From Fidelibacterota bacterium (GTDB lineage: Bacteria > Fidelibacterota > UBA8477 > JABMPR01), in assembly GCA_016784025.1 (NCBI GenBank), contig JADHVL010000001.1:73753-137752 (forward strand): DNA of 64,000 nt, written 5' to 3'. The position numbers and the translations under genes were made by a program. Position 1 is the first letter of the stretch. The number at the start of each line of letters is the position of its first letter. Of this stretch, positions 15,832-49,745 are shown in pieces. Under the pieces are notes generated by a model. That model saw only the letters and a list, made by a program, of their open reading frames with translations. It did no database searches and was not told the origin of the DNA.

Positions 15832-17400
15832 ATGCTTAGACGATTAATGGTATCAACACTCTTACTGCTAACATTTGTGTTTGCCCAATGGACAGAAACT
15901 GAAATTGTGCCAGATGGGCGGTTGCAGGAGATAAGTATCCTGGATGATGGAACCGCCTACATTGCCATCGGTAATCAGGCAGATACACCCTATGGTGGTG
16001 TTTTGAAATCCACTGATTGGGGCGCAACCTGGGGCGAACTGGATTGTCCGGCAGCAACGACTCCAACCGGGATGCTTTCTGTTGATTTCTGGGATGCGAA
16101 TCTTGGAATTGTCACCGGCAAAGATCATATCGTCATGATAACTCGTGATAGTGGTGCCAGTTGGGAAACACCTGCGTTTGAGTCAGTAAATTCATTCTGG
16201 GTCGCAAAATGGTTGAGCGCTACCACAGTCGTTACAGTTGGGGATAGTGGAAAAGTCTTTATCAGCGAAGATGCAGGAGTGAATTGGACTACACAGCTCG
16301 GGCTTAGAGACATATGCCAGACAGTACATTCAAAAGCAGGCTGTTTCGATATGGCCTTTATTGATGAAAACAACTGGGTAAGTGTCGGCAAAAAAGGAGC
16401 TATGGCAAAAACTACAGATGCCGGTGCTACCTGGACTTTGCTTGCTCACACACTTGGGACACCTGTTTTTCAGGATATCGATTTCATCGACGCAGATAAC
16501 TGGATGATAGTTGGAACAAATGGATCTGCCTTAAAAACGACCGATGCAGGTGCCAGTTTCACAGTCATGTCCATCAACGCTGCTGCAAGATTTGAGGCTC
16601 TGGATTATCTGGATGCTAACAATGCCATGATAGGTGGACATGATGGGGGAGCTCCTACTGGCATTATTTATCAAACGACTGATGGTGGTGCCACCTGGAC
16701 AGATGCGAGCATACCAGCCACTACCGGTAATTCGGTTCGCGCCATCCACATGTTTGATGCAGCTACAGTGATTGCCCTGGGTGACTTAAACCCGGGTGGA
16801 CGAATATTTACTCTGGGCGTTCCAGGTTCTGGAACTGGAAATATTGCTCCAACAGCCAGTGCTGGTGTAGACCAGACTGTTGATGAAGCCGGACCAGGAC
16901 TTGGCGCCACAATCACTCTTGATGGTTCTGGATCATCGGATTCTGATGGTACAATCACAGCCTGGGATTGGTCCTGGGATGGTGGTACAGCTTCTGGTGA
17001 AACAGCTGATGTTGAATTTGCAGCGGGAACATATGCTGTGACACTCACAGTTACAGATGATGGTGGTGAAACAGCTACCGATGAAGTGATTATAGTAATC
17101 AACGTGGTCGTATCTGTTGATGGCCGAATGAGCCCACAGGCATTTGCACTGCATGCAAATTATCCTAACCCCTTCAATCCGACCACTCAGATTAGCTATG
17201 ATTTGGCTGAGAGTGGCTTGGTTGATTTGACGATTTACGATGTAAATGGCATCGAGGTTAGCAAGCTGGTACAGGGTTATAAAAGCGCAGGACATCACAC
17301 ATTGACTTTTTCAGCAGATAACCTGCCCTCTGGGATTTATGTTGCCAGATTATCTTCAGGTATTAAAAGTATGACCAGGAAAATGATTCTGATGAAGTAA
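15832..17400 (+). CDS. BNR/Asp-box beta-propeller protein with PKD domain and T9SS CTD (tandem paralogue)
   Basis: The ORF track begins at GTG 15751. I prefer ATG 15832, which has GGGAGG 6 nt upstream and gives a normal signal peptide (MLRRLMVSTLLLLTFVFAQW). Same architecture as 14131..15705. Confidence 0.75.
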   Translation: MLRRLMVSTLLLLTFVFAQWTETEIVPDGRLQEISILDDGTAYIAIGNQADTPYGGVLKSTDWGATWGELDCPAATTPTGMLSVDFWDANLGIVTGKDHIVMITRDSGASWETPAFESVNSFWVAKWLSATTVVTVGDSGKVFISEDAGVNWTTQLGLRDICQTVHSKAGCFDMAFIDENNWVSVGKKGAMAKTTDAGATWTLLAHTLGTPVFQDIDFIDADNWMIVGTNGSALKTTDAGASFTVMSINAAARFEALDYLDANNAMIGGHDGGAPTGIIYQTTDGGATWTDASIPATTGNSVRAIHMFDAATVIALGDLNPGGRIFTLGVPGSGTGNIAPTASAGVDQTVDEAGPGLGATITLDGSGSSDSDGTITAWDWSWDGGTASGETADVEFAAGTYAVTLTVTDDGGETATDEVIIVINVVVSVDGRMSPQAFALHANYPNPFNPTTQISYDLAESGLVDLTIYDVNGIEVSKLVQGYKSAGHHTLTFSADNLPSGIYVARLSSGIKSMTRKMILMK

Positions 17401-17427
17401 AATTAGAGTCATTCATTTTGACTTATC

Positions 17428-17466
17428 AGAGGCTGATTGCTGCAGAGTGGTCAGCCTCTTTTTGTT
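17428..17466 (+). terminator. Rho-independent terminator after the BNR-PKD gene
   Basis: AGAGGCTGA (17428-17436) pairs with TCAGCCTCT (17451-17459) and is followed by TTTTGTT, 28 nt after the stop at 17400. Confidence 0.7.
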
Positions 17467-17483
17467 CAGGGAGGAAAAGCCCC

Positions 17484-17660
17484 GGACATTGAGCATGCCT
17501 GCACTGAGCGATGTCGAAGTGTCGAAATGTCTTGGACCTTGGCATGATACCCTCCGACTTCGAGAGCCTCAGTCTCCGAAATCCCCTGGACATTGAGCTC
17601 GTCGAAATGTCCTTTGCCCTGGTGATTTCCTCTCCGACTTCGACAGGCTCAGCCTCCGAA
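17484..17660. repeat. Array of small hairpin repeats with conserved TGAGC(T/C)(T/C)GTCGAA core, in alternating orientation
   Basis: Units: 17484-17531 (GGACATT..ATGTC, expanded loop), 17556-17574 (reverse core TTCGAGAGCCTCA), 17588-17612 (GGACATT GAGCTCGTCGA AATGTCC, 7-bp stem), 17638-17652 (reverse core CTTCGACAGGCTCAG). Confidence 0.65.
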
Positions 17661-17712
17661 ACATTCCTGACATTACCTACGCAGTTATACCTTGCGATGA
17701 TTGAAAAATATA

Positions 17713-17727
17713 GTATACTAAATATAC
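17713..17727. promoter_or_regulatory. Palindrome GTATA-CTAAA-TATAC, candidate operator/promoter element
   Basis: Perfect inverted repeat 99 nt upstream of the ATG at 17826, immediately downstream of the hairpin-repeat array. Confidence 0.5.
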
Positions 17728-17825
17728 ATAATAGAGATTTTGCTTCTATGACAACAATGAGAATTATGAGTAAATCTAAAAAAATCATAAAGACAATAAT
17801 AATAGTATGATAGGATGATATTATC

Positions 17826-19193
17826 ATGTTGAATCAACTACATGATTTATGGAAACTGATCATACTTGCCTCAATAACGATTCCAATCTGCGCTCAGTGG
17901 AATGAAGTCTCTGTCCCAGAGGGTAGTATCAAGCTGAATGAGATTTCTATTCTGGATGACGGATTAGCTTTCATTGCATTGGGGGGAGCTCAAAATGGTG
18001 TCACCGAGGGTGGTGTTCTGAAAACATTGAATTATGGTGAGAGCTGGCAGCTGATAGCCAGTCCTGCCAGTGACTTCAGAAAATCCATGGTAACGGTTTC
18101 CTTCAAGAATGAACTGACCGGCTTTGTTGGTGGATCCGTAGAATTATTTTTGCGTACCATGAACGGTGGAGCAAGCTGGACCTATGATGCCTTTGATACA
18201 CCCGAATCCATTAGACGTGTCAGATGGTTAAATGACACCACTGTGGTAGTAATGGACAAGGCAGGAACACTTTGTTTTAGTTCCGATCTTGGGGAAAGCT
18301 GGGATATCGATACAACTCTGGCAGCTGCTGTTTCCAATTTCCATCAACGGGCCAATACCATGGCATTTGAAATTATCGATGAGTACAATTGGATTGCAGC
18401 CGGTAAGAAGGGTGCCTTGTTAAAAACGTCCAATGGGGGACAGAGTTGGTCAAACCTTTATCATCTGGCCGGAACCCCCGTCTTTCAAGACATAGATGCC
18501 CTTGATGTAAACAACTGGATCGTGGTAGGCACGAGTGGTTCCGCGCTCATGACCCAGGATGGAGGCGATCATTTCACCGAGCTTAATCTTGATCCTAACT
18601 ACACTGCTAAATTTCAGGCAGTTAGCTATGCTGATTCAGACAATATTATGATCGGCGGTATTACCGTATCCAGTACAGGATACGGTGTCATCAAGTCCAC
18701 TGCCGATGGAGGAATGACCTGGGAAGATGAAAATTTCGGTGGCAGTGATATCTATGGATTTGCCATCAGGGATCTTCATATGTACGAGCCAGGTCTGGCC
18801 ATTGCTATCGGAGATGCAAATCCAGGTGGTAAAGTCTACCTCCTCGGAGAGCATATTTATTATGGCGATGTTAATGCAGATAGCCTTTTGAATGTCCTTG
18901 ACTTGCAACGTCTCATGGAAATCGTGACCTTTGCAGGTGATGCTGCAAATGAAGACGAACTTCGCATTATTGATATGAATAGAGATTTCTCATATGATGT
19001 CCTGGATGCTGTGTTGTTGATTGAAGCAATTATGGCATTCAATGAGTCTACTGATAGCACATCACGATCAATTGGTTCAGTTGGACGTAGCGATAGTGAT
19101 TTGAACAGTGATGATGGGATTTCACTGGATCAGACAAAAGGTCACAGACTGAAAAGAATATTTGCTAACCACATGAGAAAAACCAGACTTTAA
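17826..19193 (+). CDS. BNR/Asp-box beta-propeller protein with dockerin, lacking T9SS CTD
   Basis: 455 aa. Blades LNYGESW, TMNGGASW, SSDLGESW, TSNGGQSW, TQDGGDHF, TADGGMTW. Dockerin segments GDVNADSLLNVLDL.. and IDMNRDFSYDVLDA... Ends in a Ser/Asp-rich tail with no NYPNPFNP signature. Confidence 0.65.
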   Translation: MLNQLHDLWKLIILASITIPICAQWNEVSVPEGSIKLNEISILDDGLAFIALGGAQNGVTEGGVLKTLNYGESWQLIASPASDFRKSMVTVSFKNELTGFVGGSVELFLRTMNGGASWTYDAFDTPESIRRVRWLNDTTVVVMDKAGTLCFSSDLGESWDIDTTLAAAVSNFHQRANTMAFEIIDEYNWIAAGKKGALLKTSNGGQSWSNLYHLAGTPVFQDIDALDVNNWIVVGTSGSALMTQDGGDHFTELNLDPNYTAKFQAVSYADSDNIMIGGITVSSTGYGVIKSTADGGMTWEDENFGGSDIYGFAIRDLHMYEPGLAIAIGDANPGGKVYLLGEHIYYGDVNADSLLNVLDLQRLMEIVTFAGDAANEDELRIIDMNRDFSYDVLDAVLLIEAIMAFNESTDSTSRSIGSVGRSDSDLNSDDGISLDQTKGHRLKRIFANHMRKTRL

Positions 19194-23276: not shown

Positions 23277-23335
23277 TTATGCGTATAGGATTTGAATAAT
23301 CTCCGCAATGAGTCATGAATTTCAAATATGCAGCA

Positions 23336-23409
23336 TGCTTCGAGAACCTCAGCAAGACAGCTCTGGTATACCAAATCACTCAGCTTGTCTCCCTGAGCTT
23401 GTCGAAGGG
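23336..23409. repeat. Two members of the TGAGCTTGTCGAA hairpin family plus a partial duplicate
   Basis: 23336-23354: TGC TTCGAGAACCTCA GCA (reverse core). 23391-23409: CCC TGAGCTTGTCGAA GGG. 23379-23389: CTCAGCTTGTC is a near-copy of the core's left part. Confidence 0.55.
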
Positions 23410-23521
23410 TAAAGCGGATCGAAGTTAAAGGCTGGTACAAAAGAACGTAATAAAGAGAGTAATAAATATACCACAAGTGCACACCAAGTAAACACAATGC
23501 AGAAATGCTATTCAAAATAGG

Positions 23522-38073: not shown

Positions 38074-38180
38074 GGACATTGAGTTCACTTGTCAGGTCAC
38101 AGTTCGCAGAACGACGACTGATCGAAATGTCCAGTCCTTCGGCTGGTTAAACTCCGACCTCGACAGGCTCAGTATCCAGA
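38074..38180. repeat. Hairpin-family members downstream of cassette 2
   Basis: 38074-38131: GGACATT GAG[44-nt loop]TCGA AATGTCC has the same 7-bp stem as 17588-17612 but an expanded loop. 38152-38180: CTCCGACCTCGACAGGCTCAGTATCCAGA carries the reverse core. Confidence 0.55.
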
Positions 38181-38220
38181 ATCAATTCACCCCGAATTCA
38201 CTTGAAAACCCTTTGTTATA

Positions 38221-38236
38221 GTATATATTAGTATAC
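38221..38236. promoter_or_regulatory. Palindrome GTATA-TATTAG-TATAC (6-nt spacer), candidate operator/promoter element
   Basis: Inverted repeat directly upstream of the sulfatase gene, and downstream of the hairpin repeats as at 17.7 kb. Confidence 0.45.
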
Positions 38237-38274
38237 CAATTATACCTAAAGTGAATGAGGGATACAATTATTCC

Positions 38275-49525: not shown

Positions 49526-49565
49526 AAACTATCTGGACGCGCGGAGCCTACCTGGGATCACGAGC

Positions 49566-49704
49566 GTCTCCCTGAGGCTCTCGAAGGGGGAGACGTATAG
49601 AGATTATCATCCTTCGAGAACCTCAGGATGACAAACTGATGCAGCACAAAGATTGACAAATAGAGCACACACCCTAAACCGGACACTGAGCTTGTCGAAG
49701 TGTC
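49566..49704. repeat. Three hairpin-family members with different stems
   Basis: 49566-49594: GTCTCCC TGAGGCTCTCGAA(GG)GGGAGAC. 49607-49631: TCATCC TTCGAGAACCTCA GGATGA (reverse core). 49682-49704: GACAC TGAGCTTGTCGAA GTGTC. Confidence 0.65.
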
Positions 49705-49745
49705 AACACCACTCAAATTTTACATGATATGATTGTAAGGCATGA

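What the first reader, a model, noticed from the sequence alone, without database searches (positions are those of the whole stretch)
17484..17660. Intergenic array of hairpin repeats with a conserved loop and alternating orientation
Between the terminator at 17428 and the palindrome at 17713 lie at least four units built on the core TGAGC(T/C)(T/C)GTCGAA or its complement TTCGA(C/G)A(G/A)(G/C)CTCA. The best unit is GGACATT-GAGCTCGTCGA-AATGTCC (17588-17612, 7-bp stem). Forward and reverse units alternate, so neighbouring units could also pair with each other.

Related units occur at 23336-23409, 38074-38180 and 49566-49704, always between genes. Spurious ORFs across these regions translate to strings such as RLRLSKSEG, SEAEPVE and LRQAQGDKLSD.

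The function is unknown. Candidates are REP-like elements, RNA stability or termination elements, or recognition sites for a hairpin-binding protein.
Basis: seen in the sequence. Interest (0 to 1): 0.6.

Follow-up and report, generated by a model that had tools for sequence, protein, structure and literature searches.

The report
Hairpin repeats tied to Ssn nucleases
The intergenic hairpins are real and belong to a repeat family found in many bacterial phyla that flanks the genes of small single-strand-DNA nucleases (Ssn-type GIY-YIG); this array looks like two gene-less copies of such a nuclease cassette, and the published search motif for Ssn repeats misses the family.

Summary
The window holds at least 10 units at four intergenic sites. 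The genome holds about 160, against about 7 expected by chance.

Each unit is a hairpin with a variable, compensated stem and a conserved tip, Y-GAG-(S-NN(N)-S)-T-CGA-R. I infer that this tip folds as a closing Y:R pair, tandem G·A pairs, a G:C pair, a bulged T and an S:S-closed mini-loop.

The repeats are not linked to RAYT/IS200 genes. They are linked to small stand-alone GIY-YIG genes:
- The genome has eight such genes, 35-44% identical to the NTS-flanked Neisseria ssnA.
- There are 7 units within 200 bp of them, against 0.26 expected.
- In 80 homologous loci from about 10 phyla, unit density is 5.4/kb within 200 bp of the gene and 0.2/kb beyond.

The pair of hairpins in the array (CCC-GGACAT forward, GGAGGY reverse) flanks one Ssn paralogue in a sister species, and the forward hairpin precedes it in four species. 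The array is therefore best read as a tandemly duplicated, gene-less miniature of that cassette.

The published SRM pattern hits none of the 167 units. I class this as a new variant of the Ssn/SRM system of Chenal et al. 2025. Binding, cleavage and mobility are inferred, not shown.

The parts
17484..17532 (+). Composite hairpin. Outer stem GGACAT (17484-17489) / ATGTCT (17527-17532). The tip begins TGAGC (17490-17494) and ends TCGAA (17522-17526) and carries a nested unit.
   Evidence: Sequence. The nested screen lists it at C16 91242-91278, which is window 17490-17526.
17502..17521 (+). Nested small unit CAC-TGAGCGATGTCGAA-GTG inside the tip of the outer hairpin.
   Evidence: Weak covariance-model hit at 17502-17521, E 0.57.
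17551..17579 (-). Unit with a type-2 loop (TGAGGCTCTCGAA on the minus strand; loop 17559-17571) and a 3-bp abutting stem.
   Evidence: Covariance-model hit, 32.2 bits, E 1.6e-6. Generic regex hit at C16 91311.
17586..17614 (+). Best unit: CCC-T-GGACAT / TGAGCTCGTCGAA / ATGTCC. The 6-bp stem extends to 7 bp with the T:A closing pair.
   Evidence: Covariance-model hit, 30.5 bits. As DNA it folds to -4.9 kcal/mol, z -2.5.
17631..17659 (-). Unit CGGAGGC / TGAGCCTGTCGAA / GTCGG on the minus strand. It is the partner of the previous unit in an inverted dimer.
   Evidence: Covariance-model hit, 30.7 bits.
17521..17674 (.). Two tandem copies (74 nt each, period 80, 72% identical) of the two-hairpin module.
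   Evidence: the repeat finder family D1.
23331..23414 (.). Inverted dimer: a type-2 unit (-) at 23331-23359 and a type-1 unit (+) at 23386-23414 with the 5' arm TGTCTCCC.
   Evidence: 36.2 and 38.5 bits.
38074..38132 (+). GGACAT/ATGTCC hairpin whose tip between TGAG (38080) and TCGAA (38126) is expanded to 47 nt. This long-tip class recurs in the genome.
   Evidence: C16 111832-111878, with similar copies on C13, C9, C30, C34 and C35.
38151..38179 (-). Degenerate unit with loop TGAGCCTGTCGAG on the minus strand (38159-38171).
   Evidence: 1 mismatch. Partial covariance-model hit.
49565..49707 (.). Three units: 49565-49593 (+, CGTCTCCC / TGAGGCTCTCGAA / GGGGGAGA), 49605-49633 (-, type 2) and 49679-49707 (+, GGACAC / TGAGCTTGTCGAA / GTGTC).
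   Evidence: 35.1, 40.2 and 34.8 bits. The first two can also pair with each other, -12.5 kcal/mol.
17428..17466 (+). Context: intrinsic-terminator-like hairpin plus T-run of the upstream gene. The array begins after it.
17692..17719 (+). Context: promoter-like site of the downstream gene. The block 17683-17731 is 88% identical in the sister species G015. The array ends before it.

Best explanation
**What it is.** The array consists of copies of a very widespread family of hairpin DNA repeats. These repeats are the cognate, gene-flanking repeats of small Ssn-type GIY-YIG nucleases. They are a structural variant of the Ssn-related motifs (SRM/NTS) described in Neisseria.

**Unit structure.** Each unit has a stem that varies in sequence but stays complementary. 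The tip is conserved as Y-GAG-[S-NN(N)-S]-T-CGA-R. I infer that on single-stranded DNA the tip extends the stem by a Y:R pair, two sheared G·A pairs and a G:C pair. A bulged T and a tiny S:S-closed loop would follow.

**This array.** The pair CCC-GGACAT hairpin (+) and GGAGGY hairpin (-) matches the two ends of one resident Ssn paralogue's cassette (C11 type). The nuclease gene is missing and the module has been duplicated in tandem (80-nt period).

**Proposed mechanism (inferred).** When the DNA is single-stranded (replication, repair, uptake), the hairpin folds. The cognate Ssn binds it strand-specifically and nicks nearby. This activity, or hairpin-driven template switching, spreads units to gene 3' ends and into the tips of existing hairpins.

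**What is shown.** The repeat family, its structural covariation, its tight linkage to Ssn-type genes across phyla, and nesting.

**What is inferred.** Folding with G·A pairs, binding and cleavage by Ssn, and mobility.
For: **Family and structure**
- There are 231 generic-motif hits in the genome, 167 of them with a stem of 3 bp or more. A Markov control scaled to the genome gives about 46 and about 7.
- These tips are among the most recurrent loops of perfect-stem hairpins in an unbiased scan.
- On 150 units from this genome and other phyla, 79.9% of cells are paired against 59.4% in shuffles. The covariation score is 0.541 against 0.177, reached by 0 of 500 shuffles, and slid controls score 0.18 or less. 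The S5:S8 pair is CG in 80 units, GC in 68 and UG in 2.

**Link to Ssn-type genes in this genome**
- The genome has eight stand-alone GIY-YIG genes of 70-125 aa.
- 7 units lie within 200 bp of them against 0.26 expected.
- Three of the genes have a (+) unit upstream and a (-) unit downstream.

**Link across phyla**
- In 80 homologous loci there are 204 hits against 6 for the control pattern.
- Density is 5.4/kb within 200 bp of the gene and 0.2/kb beyond.
- 61 of 80 loci have a unit on one side and 40 of 80 on both.
- Orientation is mostly + upstream and - downstream.
- Loop class follows the nuclease tree: 12 changes against 25-31 in the shuffles printed.

**Homology to characterised Ssn**
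- A Neisseria gonorrhoeae gene flanked by canonical NTS repeats is 44% identical to two paralogues here (E 2e-19 and 1e-23) and 35% identical to the C11 type (E 2e-11).
- Chenal et al. 2025 (PMC11893778) showed that Ssn proteins bind and cut their flanking hairpin repeats only as ssDNA.

**The window's stem class and the C11-type paralogue**
- Orthologues in three sister species, and the gene in this genome, have a CCC-GGACAT hairpin 35-50 nt upstream.
- The G007 orthologue has a GGAGGT hairpin (-) just downstream.
- This is the same pair as window 17586-17659 without the gene.

**Copy number and distribution**
- Copy number varies from 6 to 89 within the genus and correlates with GIY-YIG count, rho 0.61.
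- The orthologous spacer in G015 lacks the array.
- Units are intergenic (151 of 167 in a genome that is 90% ORF) and favour convergent spacers.
- Of neighbouring units 150 nt or less apart, 45 of 53 are inverted.
Against: - No experiment or read data here shows folding, binding, cutting or movement.
- Metagenome contigs from four studies are identical over the array, so no insertion polymorphism was caught.
- The window's GGACAT class lacks the 5' (C/T)GTC tag. That tag is essential for Neisseria SsnA, and 106 of the 167 units in this genome carry it.
- The published SRM pattern matches none of the units.
- Type-1 loops have no adjacent Ssn gene in this genome; that link comes only from other genomes.
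- Some genomes have units but few GIY-YIG genes (G039: 26 and 1; G019: 17 and 0), or the reverse (G036: 0 and 7).
- The loop-versus-tree signal is confounded with host phylogeny.
- Nearest-neighbour folding gives only modest stability, z -2.5 for the best unit and about 0 for the composite ones.
- The C11-type protein is closer to UPF0213 proteins (1zg2, E 1.5e-17) than Neisseria SsnA is (E 0.17). It may therefore belong to a sister clade whose activity has not been tested.
Confidence: 0.75

Rival explanations
1. REP/REPIN-type elements mobilised by a RAYT (IS200-like Y1 transposase), as the first reader suggested checking.
For: The units are dispersed, intergenic and palindromic, mostly as inverted dimers. 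The genome encodes two Y1_Tnp proteins.
Against: Neither Y1 gene is flanked by these units. The C29 gene is flanked by a different palindrome family, GGATTCGAATCC. There is no GTAG tag. The units cluster 27-fold around GIY-YIG genes instead.
Confidence: 0.04
2. RNA-level elements: transcribed hairpins that act as terminators, 3'-end stabilisers or processing sites.
For: The units are enriched in convergent spacers and depleted in divergent ones: 42 and 10 observed against about 20 and 29 expected from spacer lengths. Tandem G·A motifs are also common in structured RNA (my own knowledge).
Against: Orientation relative to the upstream gene is unbiased, 52 against 44. Units come mostly as inverted pairs. 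This array lies after a terminator-like site and before the next promoter-like site. There is no Rfam match. Neisseria SsnA does not bind RNA (PMC11893778). The one metatranscriptome contig covers only the upstream gene, which is uninformative.
Confidence: 0.08
3. Passive by-products or binding sites of some other host factor (nucleoid protein, regulator, recombination hot spot). On this reading the GIY-YIG genes merely insert preferentially next to them.
For: The direction of causality between gene and repeat is not established. Some genomes have units with almost no GIY-YIG genes. Three other GIY-YIG genes in this genome sit next to tRNA or tmRNA genes, so such cassettes do choose specific targets.
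Against: The inverted arrangement, (+) upstream and (-) downstream at fixed short distances, holds across about 10 phyla. Loop type tracks the nuclease clade. Related proteins have demonstrated specificity for their own flanking hairpins.
Confidence: 0.1

Closest known systems
Ssn-related motifs (SRM), including the Neisseria NTS/dRS3 repeats, and their Ssn GIY-YIG ssDNA nucleases (Chenal et al., Nat Commun 2025, PMC11893778)
   Same: - Short hairpin repeats are present in tens to hundreds of copies and are almost all intergenic.
- They flank both sides of a ~90-100-aa single-domain GIY-YIG gene in an IS-like repeat-gene-repeat layout.
- The proteins are homologous, 35-44% identical to the NTS-flanked Neisseria gene.
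- Most family members carry the 5' (C/T)GTC tag.
   Different: - The tip is a conserved 13-14-nt module, Y-GAG...T-CGA-R, instead of a long stem with a 3-5-nt loop.
- The published degenerate SRM pattern finds 6 NTS in the Neisseria locus but 0 of the 167 units here, and no more hits in this genome than in a shuffle.
- The window's own units (GGACAT class) lack the GTC tag.
- Units nest inside each other's tips.
- There are eight paralogues in one genome, with different hairpin subtypes beside several of them.
- Some paralogues are closer to UPF0213 proteins than to SsnA.
CGTC-tagged REPs, families CGTC-1 to -4 (Di Nocera, De Gregorio and Rocco, BMC Genomics 2013, PMC3733652)
   Same: - A terminal CGTC/TGTC motif is present on most family members.
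- Inverted (head-to-head type) dimers predominate.
- Units prefer spacers between unidirectional and convergent genes.
- No dedicated tyrosine transposase is associated.
   Different: - Those families have 8-9-bp stems starting with AT, 4-5-nt loops and a CCA tail.
- Here the GTC is often part of the stem.
- The stem is only 3-8 bp before a conserved 13-14-nt tip.
- Hosts are mainly phyla outside the Alphaproteobacteria.
REP/BIME and REPIN elements with RAYT transposases
   Same: - Both are small, dispersed, hairpin-forming intergenic repeats in inverted doublets.
- Both are thought to act as single-stranded DNA.
- In both cases a small nuclease gene is flanked by its own repeats.
   Different: - There is no GTAG tag.
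- The associated enzyme has a GIY-YIG fold, not an HUH/Y1 fold.
- The RAYT-like genes of this genome are not linked to these units.

Membership tests
Ssn-related motifs (SRM/NTS) of Chenal et al. 2025 | Hairpin-forming inverted repeat of 20-50 nt present in many copies, mostly intergenic. | tested here: met
   About 160 copies are present. 151 of 167 lie outside ORFs. Stem covariation was reached by 0 of 500 shuffles.
Ssn-related motifs (SRM/NTS) of Chenal et al. 2025 | Found in the flanks, often on both sides, of genes encoding SsnA homologues. | tested here: met
   7 units lie within 200 bp of the genes against 0.26 expected in this genome. 61 of 80 loci have a unit on one side and 40 of 80 on both, and density is 27-fold higher near the gene.
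Ssn-related motifs (SRM/NTS) of Chenal et al. 2025 | Fits the published degenerate search sequence HGTCWYN(0-2)YYVSBRHN(0-5)WNVSBRGN(0-2)RNCYNB. | tested here: not met
   0 of 167 units overlap a match. The genome has 12 matches against 16 in a shuffle. The same pattern finds 6 NTS in the Neisseria control locus.
Ssn-related motifs (SRM/NTS) of Chenal et al. 2025 | Conserved unpaired 5' tag (CGTC/HGTC) that gives the repeat its orientation. | tested here: inconclusive
   GTC lies 5-7 nt before the tip in 106 of 167 genome units. 35 units, including the GGACAT units of this array, have YGG instead, preceded by a C-rich run.
Ssn-related motifs (SRM/NTS) of Chenal et al. 2025 | Bound, and cut nearby, by the cognate Ssn as single-stranded DNA only, on one strand only. 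| not testable with these tools
   This needs purified protein and oligonucleotides.
Ssn nuclease family (protein partner) | Single-domain GIY-YIG protein of about 90-100 aa. | tested here: met
   Eight genes of 70-125 aa exceed the PF01541 cut-off, with no other domain.
Ssn nuclease family (protein partner) | Homology to Neisseria SsnA. The paper's own criterion is E < 1e-10. | tested here: met
   tblastn hit to the NTS-flanked N. gonorrhoeae gene at E 2e-10 in a 7.3-Gb database. Pairwise comparisons give 44% (E 2e-19), 44% (E 1e-23) and 35% (E 2e-11).
Ssn nuclease family (protein partner) | Assignment to CDD family cd10448 rather than cd10456 (UPF0213). | not testable with these tools
   No CDD library is available. 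The closest solved structures are UPF0213 proteins: 1zg2 at E 1.5e-17 for the C11 type, but E 0.17 for the Neisseria protein.
CGTC-tagged REPs (Di Nocera 2013) | 8-9-bp stem beginning with AT, 4-5-nt loop, CCA tail. | tested here: not met
   Stems are 3-8 bp of variable sequence. The conserved tip is 13-14 nt. No CCA tail is seen.
REP/REPIN with RAYT | GTAG tag, and a RAYT gene flanked by the repeats. | tested here: not met
   There is no GTAG tag. The two Y1_Tnp genes (C47:134031, C29:61834) have no unit within 1 kb.
Any Rfam RNA family | Match to a curated covariance model. | tested here: not met
   Nothing reaches the gathering threshold in the window except a tRNA. Nothing relevant appears at E <= 1 in 17400-17830.

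The most novel reading that the evidence does not exclude
The Y-GAG...CGA-R hairpin with tandem G·A pairs may be the common recognition and mobility module of a large clade of Ssn/UPF0213 GIY-YIG nucleases found across bacterial phyla.

- Units of about 24 nt would then be among the smallest mobile DNA known. They would insert into the single-stranded tips of existing hairpins and into gene 3' ends.
- Hairpin-gene-hairpin cassettes of about 400 bp would be the autonomous form.
- This would make a GIY-YIG-driven, ssDNA-based counterpart of the REP/RAYT system. It would also give a function to the uncharacterised UPF0213 family.
Probability: 0.3. Interest if true: 0.8.

Novelty: new variant of a known kind. 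Interest (0 to 1): 0.55.

Why it matters
Ssn nucleases were described only in 2025 as the first site-specific nucleases that cut only single-stranded DNA. Each one comes with its own hairpin target.

- **The published definition misses this family.** A very widespread repeat family with a distinct, conserved tip escapes the published motif. Surveys based on that motif therefore under-count Ssn/repeat pairs. This genome would score as having no SRM although it has eight Ssn-type genes.
- **It yields ready-made test pairs.** The family offers enzyme and target pairs, with covarying positions that say which bases to mutate.
- **It explains common junk peptides.** It accounts for junk translations such as PELVEG, FDKL and SLSK seen across these repeats (earlier scan note e1-4516524; otherwise my own recollection).
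- **It bears on an open question.** The gene-less dimers and the nesting bear on whether Ssn cassettes are mobile elements and what moves CGTC-type REPs, a question left open since 2013.

Tried and rejected
- **Rfam.** Searches at the gathering and E-value thresholds found nothing relevant.
- **Literature by sequence.** A full-text search for the core sequence returned only unrelated primer matches. A search for Ssn-related terms returned only the 2025 paper. That paper's supplements are not held.
- **RAYT hypothesis.** Rejected.
- **Published SRM pattern.** It does not capture the family.
- **Distant-profile locus search.** I used 3 proteins instead.
- **Orthologous-site comparison.** Only one sister species (G015) aligns at the DNA level. 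Its gene order differs and its spacer holds other repeat remnants, so no clean empty site was obtained.
- **Population polymorphism.** Contigs of four metagenome studies are identical over 17200-18000, so no variant was seen.
- **RNA evidence.** The single small metatranscriptome covers only 17218-17377.
- **Replication-strand bias.** None is detectable, 39 against 33, with 95 units ambiguous in a fragmented assembly.
- **Automatic screen for nested units.** It was noisier than its control (146 against 184). Only recurrent, hand-checked cases are used.
- **Thermodynamic folding.** It does not single out the composite units, z about 0. The structural case rests on covariation.

Full report
**1. 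Observation**

The region reads as described. The core TGAGCYYGTCGAA occurs 5 times in the window with up to 1 mismatch, against 0.14 expected; no shuffle of 100 reaches 5.

In the whole 3.5-Mb assembly, where the window is C16:73753-137752, there are 50 exact and 24 one-mismatch copies. Nearly all sit between short complementary arms whose sequence differs from copy to copy, for example ggacat/atgtcc, ggaggc/gcctcc, gtcaccc/gggtgac and gtcttgc/gtatgac.

I also ran an unbiased scan for loops enclosed by perfect stems of 5 bp or more. It ranks these tips among the most recurrent in the genome, next to an unrelated GATTCGAATC palindrome family.

**2. Anatomy of the family**

A generic pattern, [TC]GAG-N3-4-[GC]TCGA[AG], gives 231 hits, 167 of them with an abutting stem of 3 bp or more. 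A first-order Markov control gave 13 and 2 per Mb, which scales to about 46 and about 7 for the genome.

The main tip types are:
- T-GAG-CYT-GTC-GAA (about 50 copies)
- T-GAG-GYT-CTC-GAA (about 50 copies)
- C-GAG-CGGA-GTC-GAG (33 copies)
- T-GAG-GGAA-CTC-GAA (5 copies)

Three things covary:
- the variable stem;
- the first and last tip bases (T..A or C..G);
- tip positions 5 and 8, or 5 and 9 in the 14-nt tips (C..G or G..C).

I tested this on 150 distinct units, 75 from this genome and 75 from other phyla:
- 79.9% of cells pair, against 59.4% in shuffles.
- The covariation score is 0.541 against 0.177, reached by 0 of 500 shuffles.
- Slid controls score 0.18 or less.
- The 5:8 pair is CG in 80 units, GC in 68 and UG in 2.

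The inner three stem pairs are paired by selection. The pair types, the outer pairs and the 5:8 pair are not constrained by the way the units were collected.

Both strands of the invariant part read 5'-YGAR-3' (TGAG and CGAA). From my own knowledge, this is the favoured context for tandem sheared G·A pairs in DNA. My inferred fold is: stem, Y:R, G·A, A·G, G:C, a bulged T, and an S:S pair closing a 2-3-base loop. This fold is an inference.

Nearest-neighbour folding, which does not model such motifs, gives only -4.9 kcal/mol (z -2.5) for the best unit.

**3. Distribution in the genome**

- The genome is about 90% ORF by a naive ORF tiling, yet 151 of 167 units lie outside ORFs. Most of the 16 exceptions lie in short spurious ORFs that span the repeats, such as the 133-aa ORF over this array.
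- Convergent spacers are over-represented and divergent ones under-represented.
- Orientation is unbiased relative to the upstream gene, 52 against 44.
- Orientation is also unbiased relative to local GC skew, 39 against 33.
- Of 53 neighbouring pairs 150 nt or less apart, 45 are inverted, typically 35-60 nt apart.
- A covariance model of the 13-nt-tip classes finds 125 copies in the genome and 8 strong copies in the window.

**4. The associated gene**

The two Y1-transposase (RAYT-like) genes are not flanked by these units.

Notes from earlier runs of this scan pointed to GIY-YIG genes and to the Ssn paper. I treated these as leads and tested them:
- The genome has eight stand-alone GIY-YIG genes of 70-125 aa.
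- 7 units lie within 200 bp of them against 0.26 expected, a Poisson probability of about 1e-8.
- The C11, C5 and C37 genes have a (+) unit upstream and a (-) unit downstream.

A scan of one genome per species found 594 homologues. The best 80 loci come, by record title, from these groups:
- Marinimicrobia
- Ignavibacteria
- Bacteroidota
- Nitrospirota
- Chloroflexota
- Deltaproteobacteria
- Planctomycetota (Brocadia)
- Nitrospinota
- Zixibacteria
- Cloacimonadota
- Alphaproteobacteria

In these loci:
- The motif occurs 204 times, against 6 for the reversed control pattern.
- Density is 5.4/kb within 200 bp of the gene and 0.2/kb beyond.
- 61 of 80 loci have a unit on at least one side and 40 of 80 on both.
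- Orientation is mostly + upstream and - downstream.

Tip class maps onto the nuclease tree with 12 changes, against 25-31 in the ten label shuffles printed out of 200. This signal is confounded with host relatedness.

Whole genomes of 14 of these organisms carry 22-121 copies, against 3-29 for the control pattern. N. gonorrhoeae, which uses NTS, has 7 against 4.

In 41 relatives, copy number ranges from 0 to 89 (6-89 within the genus) and correlates with GIY-YIG count, rho 0.61.

**5. Relation to Ssn**

Chenal et al. 2025 (PMC11893778) made three relevant findings:
- SsnA, a 94-aa GIY-YIG protein of N. meningitidis, binds the hairpin repeat NTS and cuts just upstream of it. It does so only on ssDNA and only on one strand.
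- Homologues in many phyla are flanked by related motifs (SRM).
- The repeat-gene-repeat layout resembles an insertion sequence.

A tblastn search of plasmid records hit a gonococcal chromosome filed as a plasmid. The hit is a gene flanked on both sides by canonical NTS repeats. Its product compares with the proteins here as follows:
- 44% identical to the C5 protein, E 2e-19;
- 44% identical to the C12 protein, E 1e-23;
- 35% identical to the C11 protein, E 2e-11.

The partner proteins are therefore Ssn homologues by the paper's own criterion.

The C11 type is closer to the UPF0213 structures (1zg2, E 1.5e-17) than the Neisseria protein is (E 0.17). I could not run CDD.

The published SRM pattern recovers 6 NTS in the Neisseria locus. 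In this genome it gives 12 matches against 16 in a shuffle, and it overlaps none of the 167 units.

The CGTC-REP families of Di Nocera et al. 2013 share the tag and the dimer habit. They have 8-9-bp stems and 4-5-nt loops. The family here is thus a variant not covered by either description.

**6. What the array itself is**

The window's units belong to the sub-class without a GTC tag. These have the form CCC-(N)-GGACAT...ATGTCC, paired with an inverted C(C/G)GGAGGY unit.

That sub-class accompanies the C11-type paralogue:
- In this genome and in G016, G007 and G013 (79-84% identical proteins), a CCC-GGACAT hairpin lies 35-50 nt upstream of the start codon. In G007 the upstream neighbour, a glycine-rich gene, is the same as here.
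- The tips of these hairpins differ: type 1, type 2 or nested.
- In G007 a GGAGGT hairpin in (-) orientation follows the stop codon.

Window 17586-17659 has the same two hairpins, in the same relative orientation, separated by 16 nt instead of a gene. This module is duplicated with an 80-nt period.

I therefore read the array as a gene-less miniature of the C11-type cassette, the relation a MITE has to its insertion sequence. This is an inference from architecture.

**7. Nesting**

In several hand-checked cases the part between YGAG and CGAR holds a complete second unit of about 24 nt:
- window 17490-17526;
- C14 11930 and C47 30016;
- C18 22450;
- C30 5662 and C47 112908, where removing TGTCAYAC-tip-GTG restores an intact type-2 tip;
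- a triple nest at C22 7775.

A recurrent 47-nt tip class includes window 38080-38126. The automatic screen as a whole was no better than its control, so I rely only on these recurrent cases.

More diverged C11-like genes are flanked by GGACAT-CGAG-[small hairpin]-CGAG-ATG.. units, so the YGAG...CGAR frame is kept while the tip varies.

**8. Turnover**

The only alignable sister genome (G015) keeps the terminator and the promoter block. Between them it has different repeat remnants, including a TCGAAATGTC half-unit, and no array.

Within the present-day population the array is fixed. Contigs from four studies match with no differences.

**9. RNA or DNA**

This array lies between a terminator-like site (17428-17459 plus T-run) and a promoter-like site (17692-17719). 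Orientation is unbiased and Rfam has no match. The only RNA data set is uninformative. These points favour a DNA-level element but do not exclude transcription of other copies.

**10. Verdict**

The units are real structured repeats and belong to a family found in about 10 phyla. They are the partner repeats of Ssn-type GIY-YIG nucleases rather than of RAYTs.

The kind of system is known since 2025. This motif class, its conserved tip, its nesting and the gene-less dimers appear undescribed in the literature I could search. Function at this locus is probably none beyond persistence of the element. Biochemical recognition and mobility remain to be shown.

Noticed in passing
G000 C29:61700-62450 (outside the window; locus L002): A 169-aa Y1-transposase (RAYT-like) gene is flanked on both sides by a different palindrome family, CCAGGCYGGGATTCGAATCCCRGCCTGG. 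Its GATTCGAATC core is the most frequent perfect-stem hairpin loop in the genome (15 or more copies). This is probably a separate REP/RAYT pair.
   Followed up: partly
G000 C14:11245-11517, C47:149447-149686, C9:9901-10113 (loci L004, L009, L010): Three other small GIY-YIG genes lie directly beside tRNA-Arg(CCG), tRNA-Leu(CAA) and the tmRNA gene. The C14 and C47 genes are bracketed by direct repeats of about 60-95 nt. At C14 the repeat includes the 3' end of the tRNA, as if a cassette had inserted at the tRNA 3' end.
   Followed up: partly
G000 C22:6337-6778: Five same-orientation units (GGTGGT / TGAGCTTGTCGAA / ACCTCC) form a tandem array with a 103-104-nt period. Elsewhere inverted dimers are the rule.
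   Followed up: no
window 17683-17731 and 38215-38250: An AT-rich palindromic block (ATATAGTATACTAAATATACAT) lies upstream of the propeller-paralogue gene. It is 88% identical in sister species G015, although the spacer around it has turned over, and a similar block precedes the gene after 38180. It may be a shared promoter or operator of these paralogues.
   Followed up: partly
L092 (G015:C139), reverse strand 2700-2830: The orthologous spacer of the sister species carries CGTCATCCTGAGCACCGCGTAGGATC. This tip starts with TGAG but does not fit the T-CGA-R ending of the units here, so the superfamily may be broader than the pattern I used.
   Followed up: no
L093-L095, L101 (G016, G005, G018, G004): C11-like nuclease genes of about 71% identity are flanked by two further repeat types: GGACAT-CGAG-[CCCGTAGGG-type mini hairpin]-CGAG-ATG.. 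and CACC-TCGATACATTC...GAAYACTCGGTG. Both keep the GAG...CGA frame.
   Followed up: partly
L015, L019, L036 compared with G012:C8 and G007:C2: MAGs titled 'uncultured Lentisphaeria' have contigs of exactly the same length (106769 and 119164) as contigs of genomes placed in the window's own genus. The NCBI label probably mis-assigns Marinimicrobia MAGs, so I did not count Lentisphaerae as a separate phylum.
   Followed up: partly
G000 C5:29053, C26:85837: A few well-formed units lie well inside long ORFs of 426 and 393 aa on the opposite strand. They may be intragenic insertions or ORF-calling artefacts.
   Followed up: no
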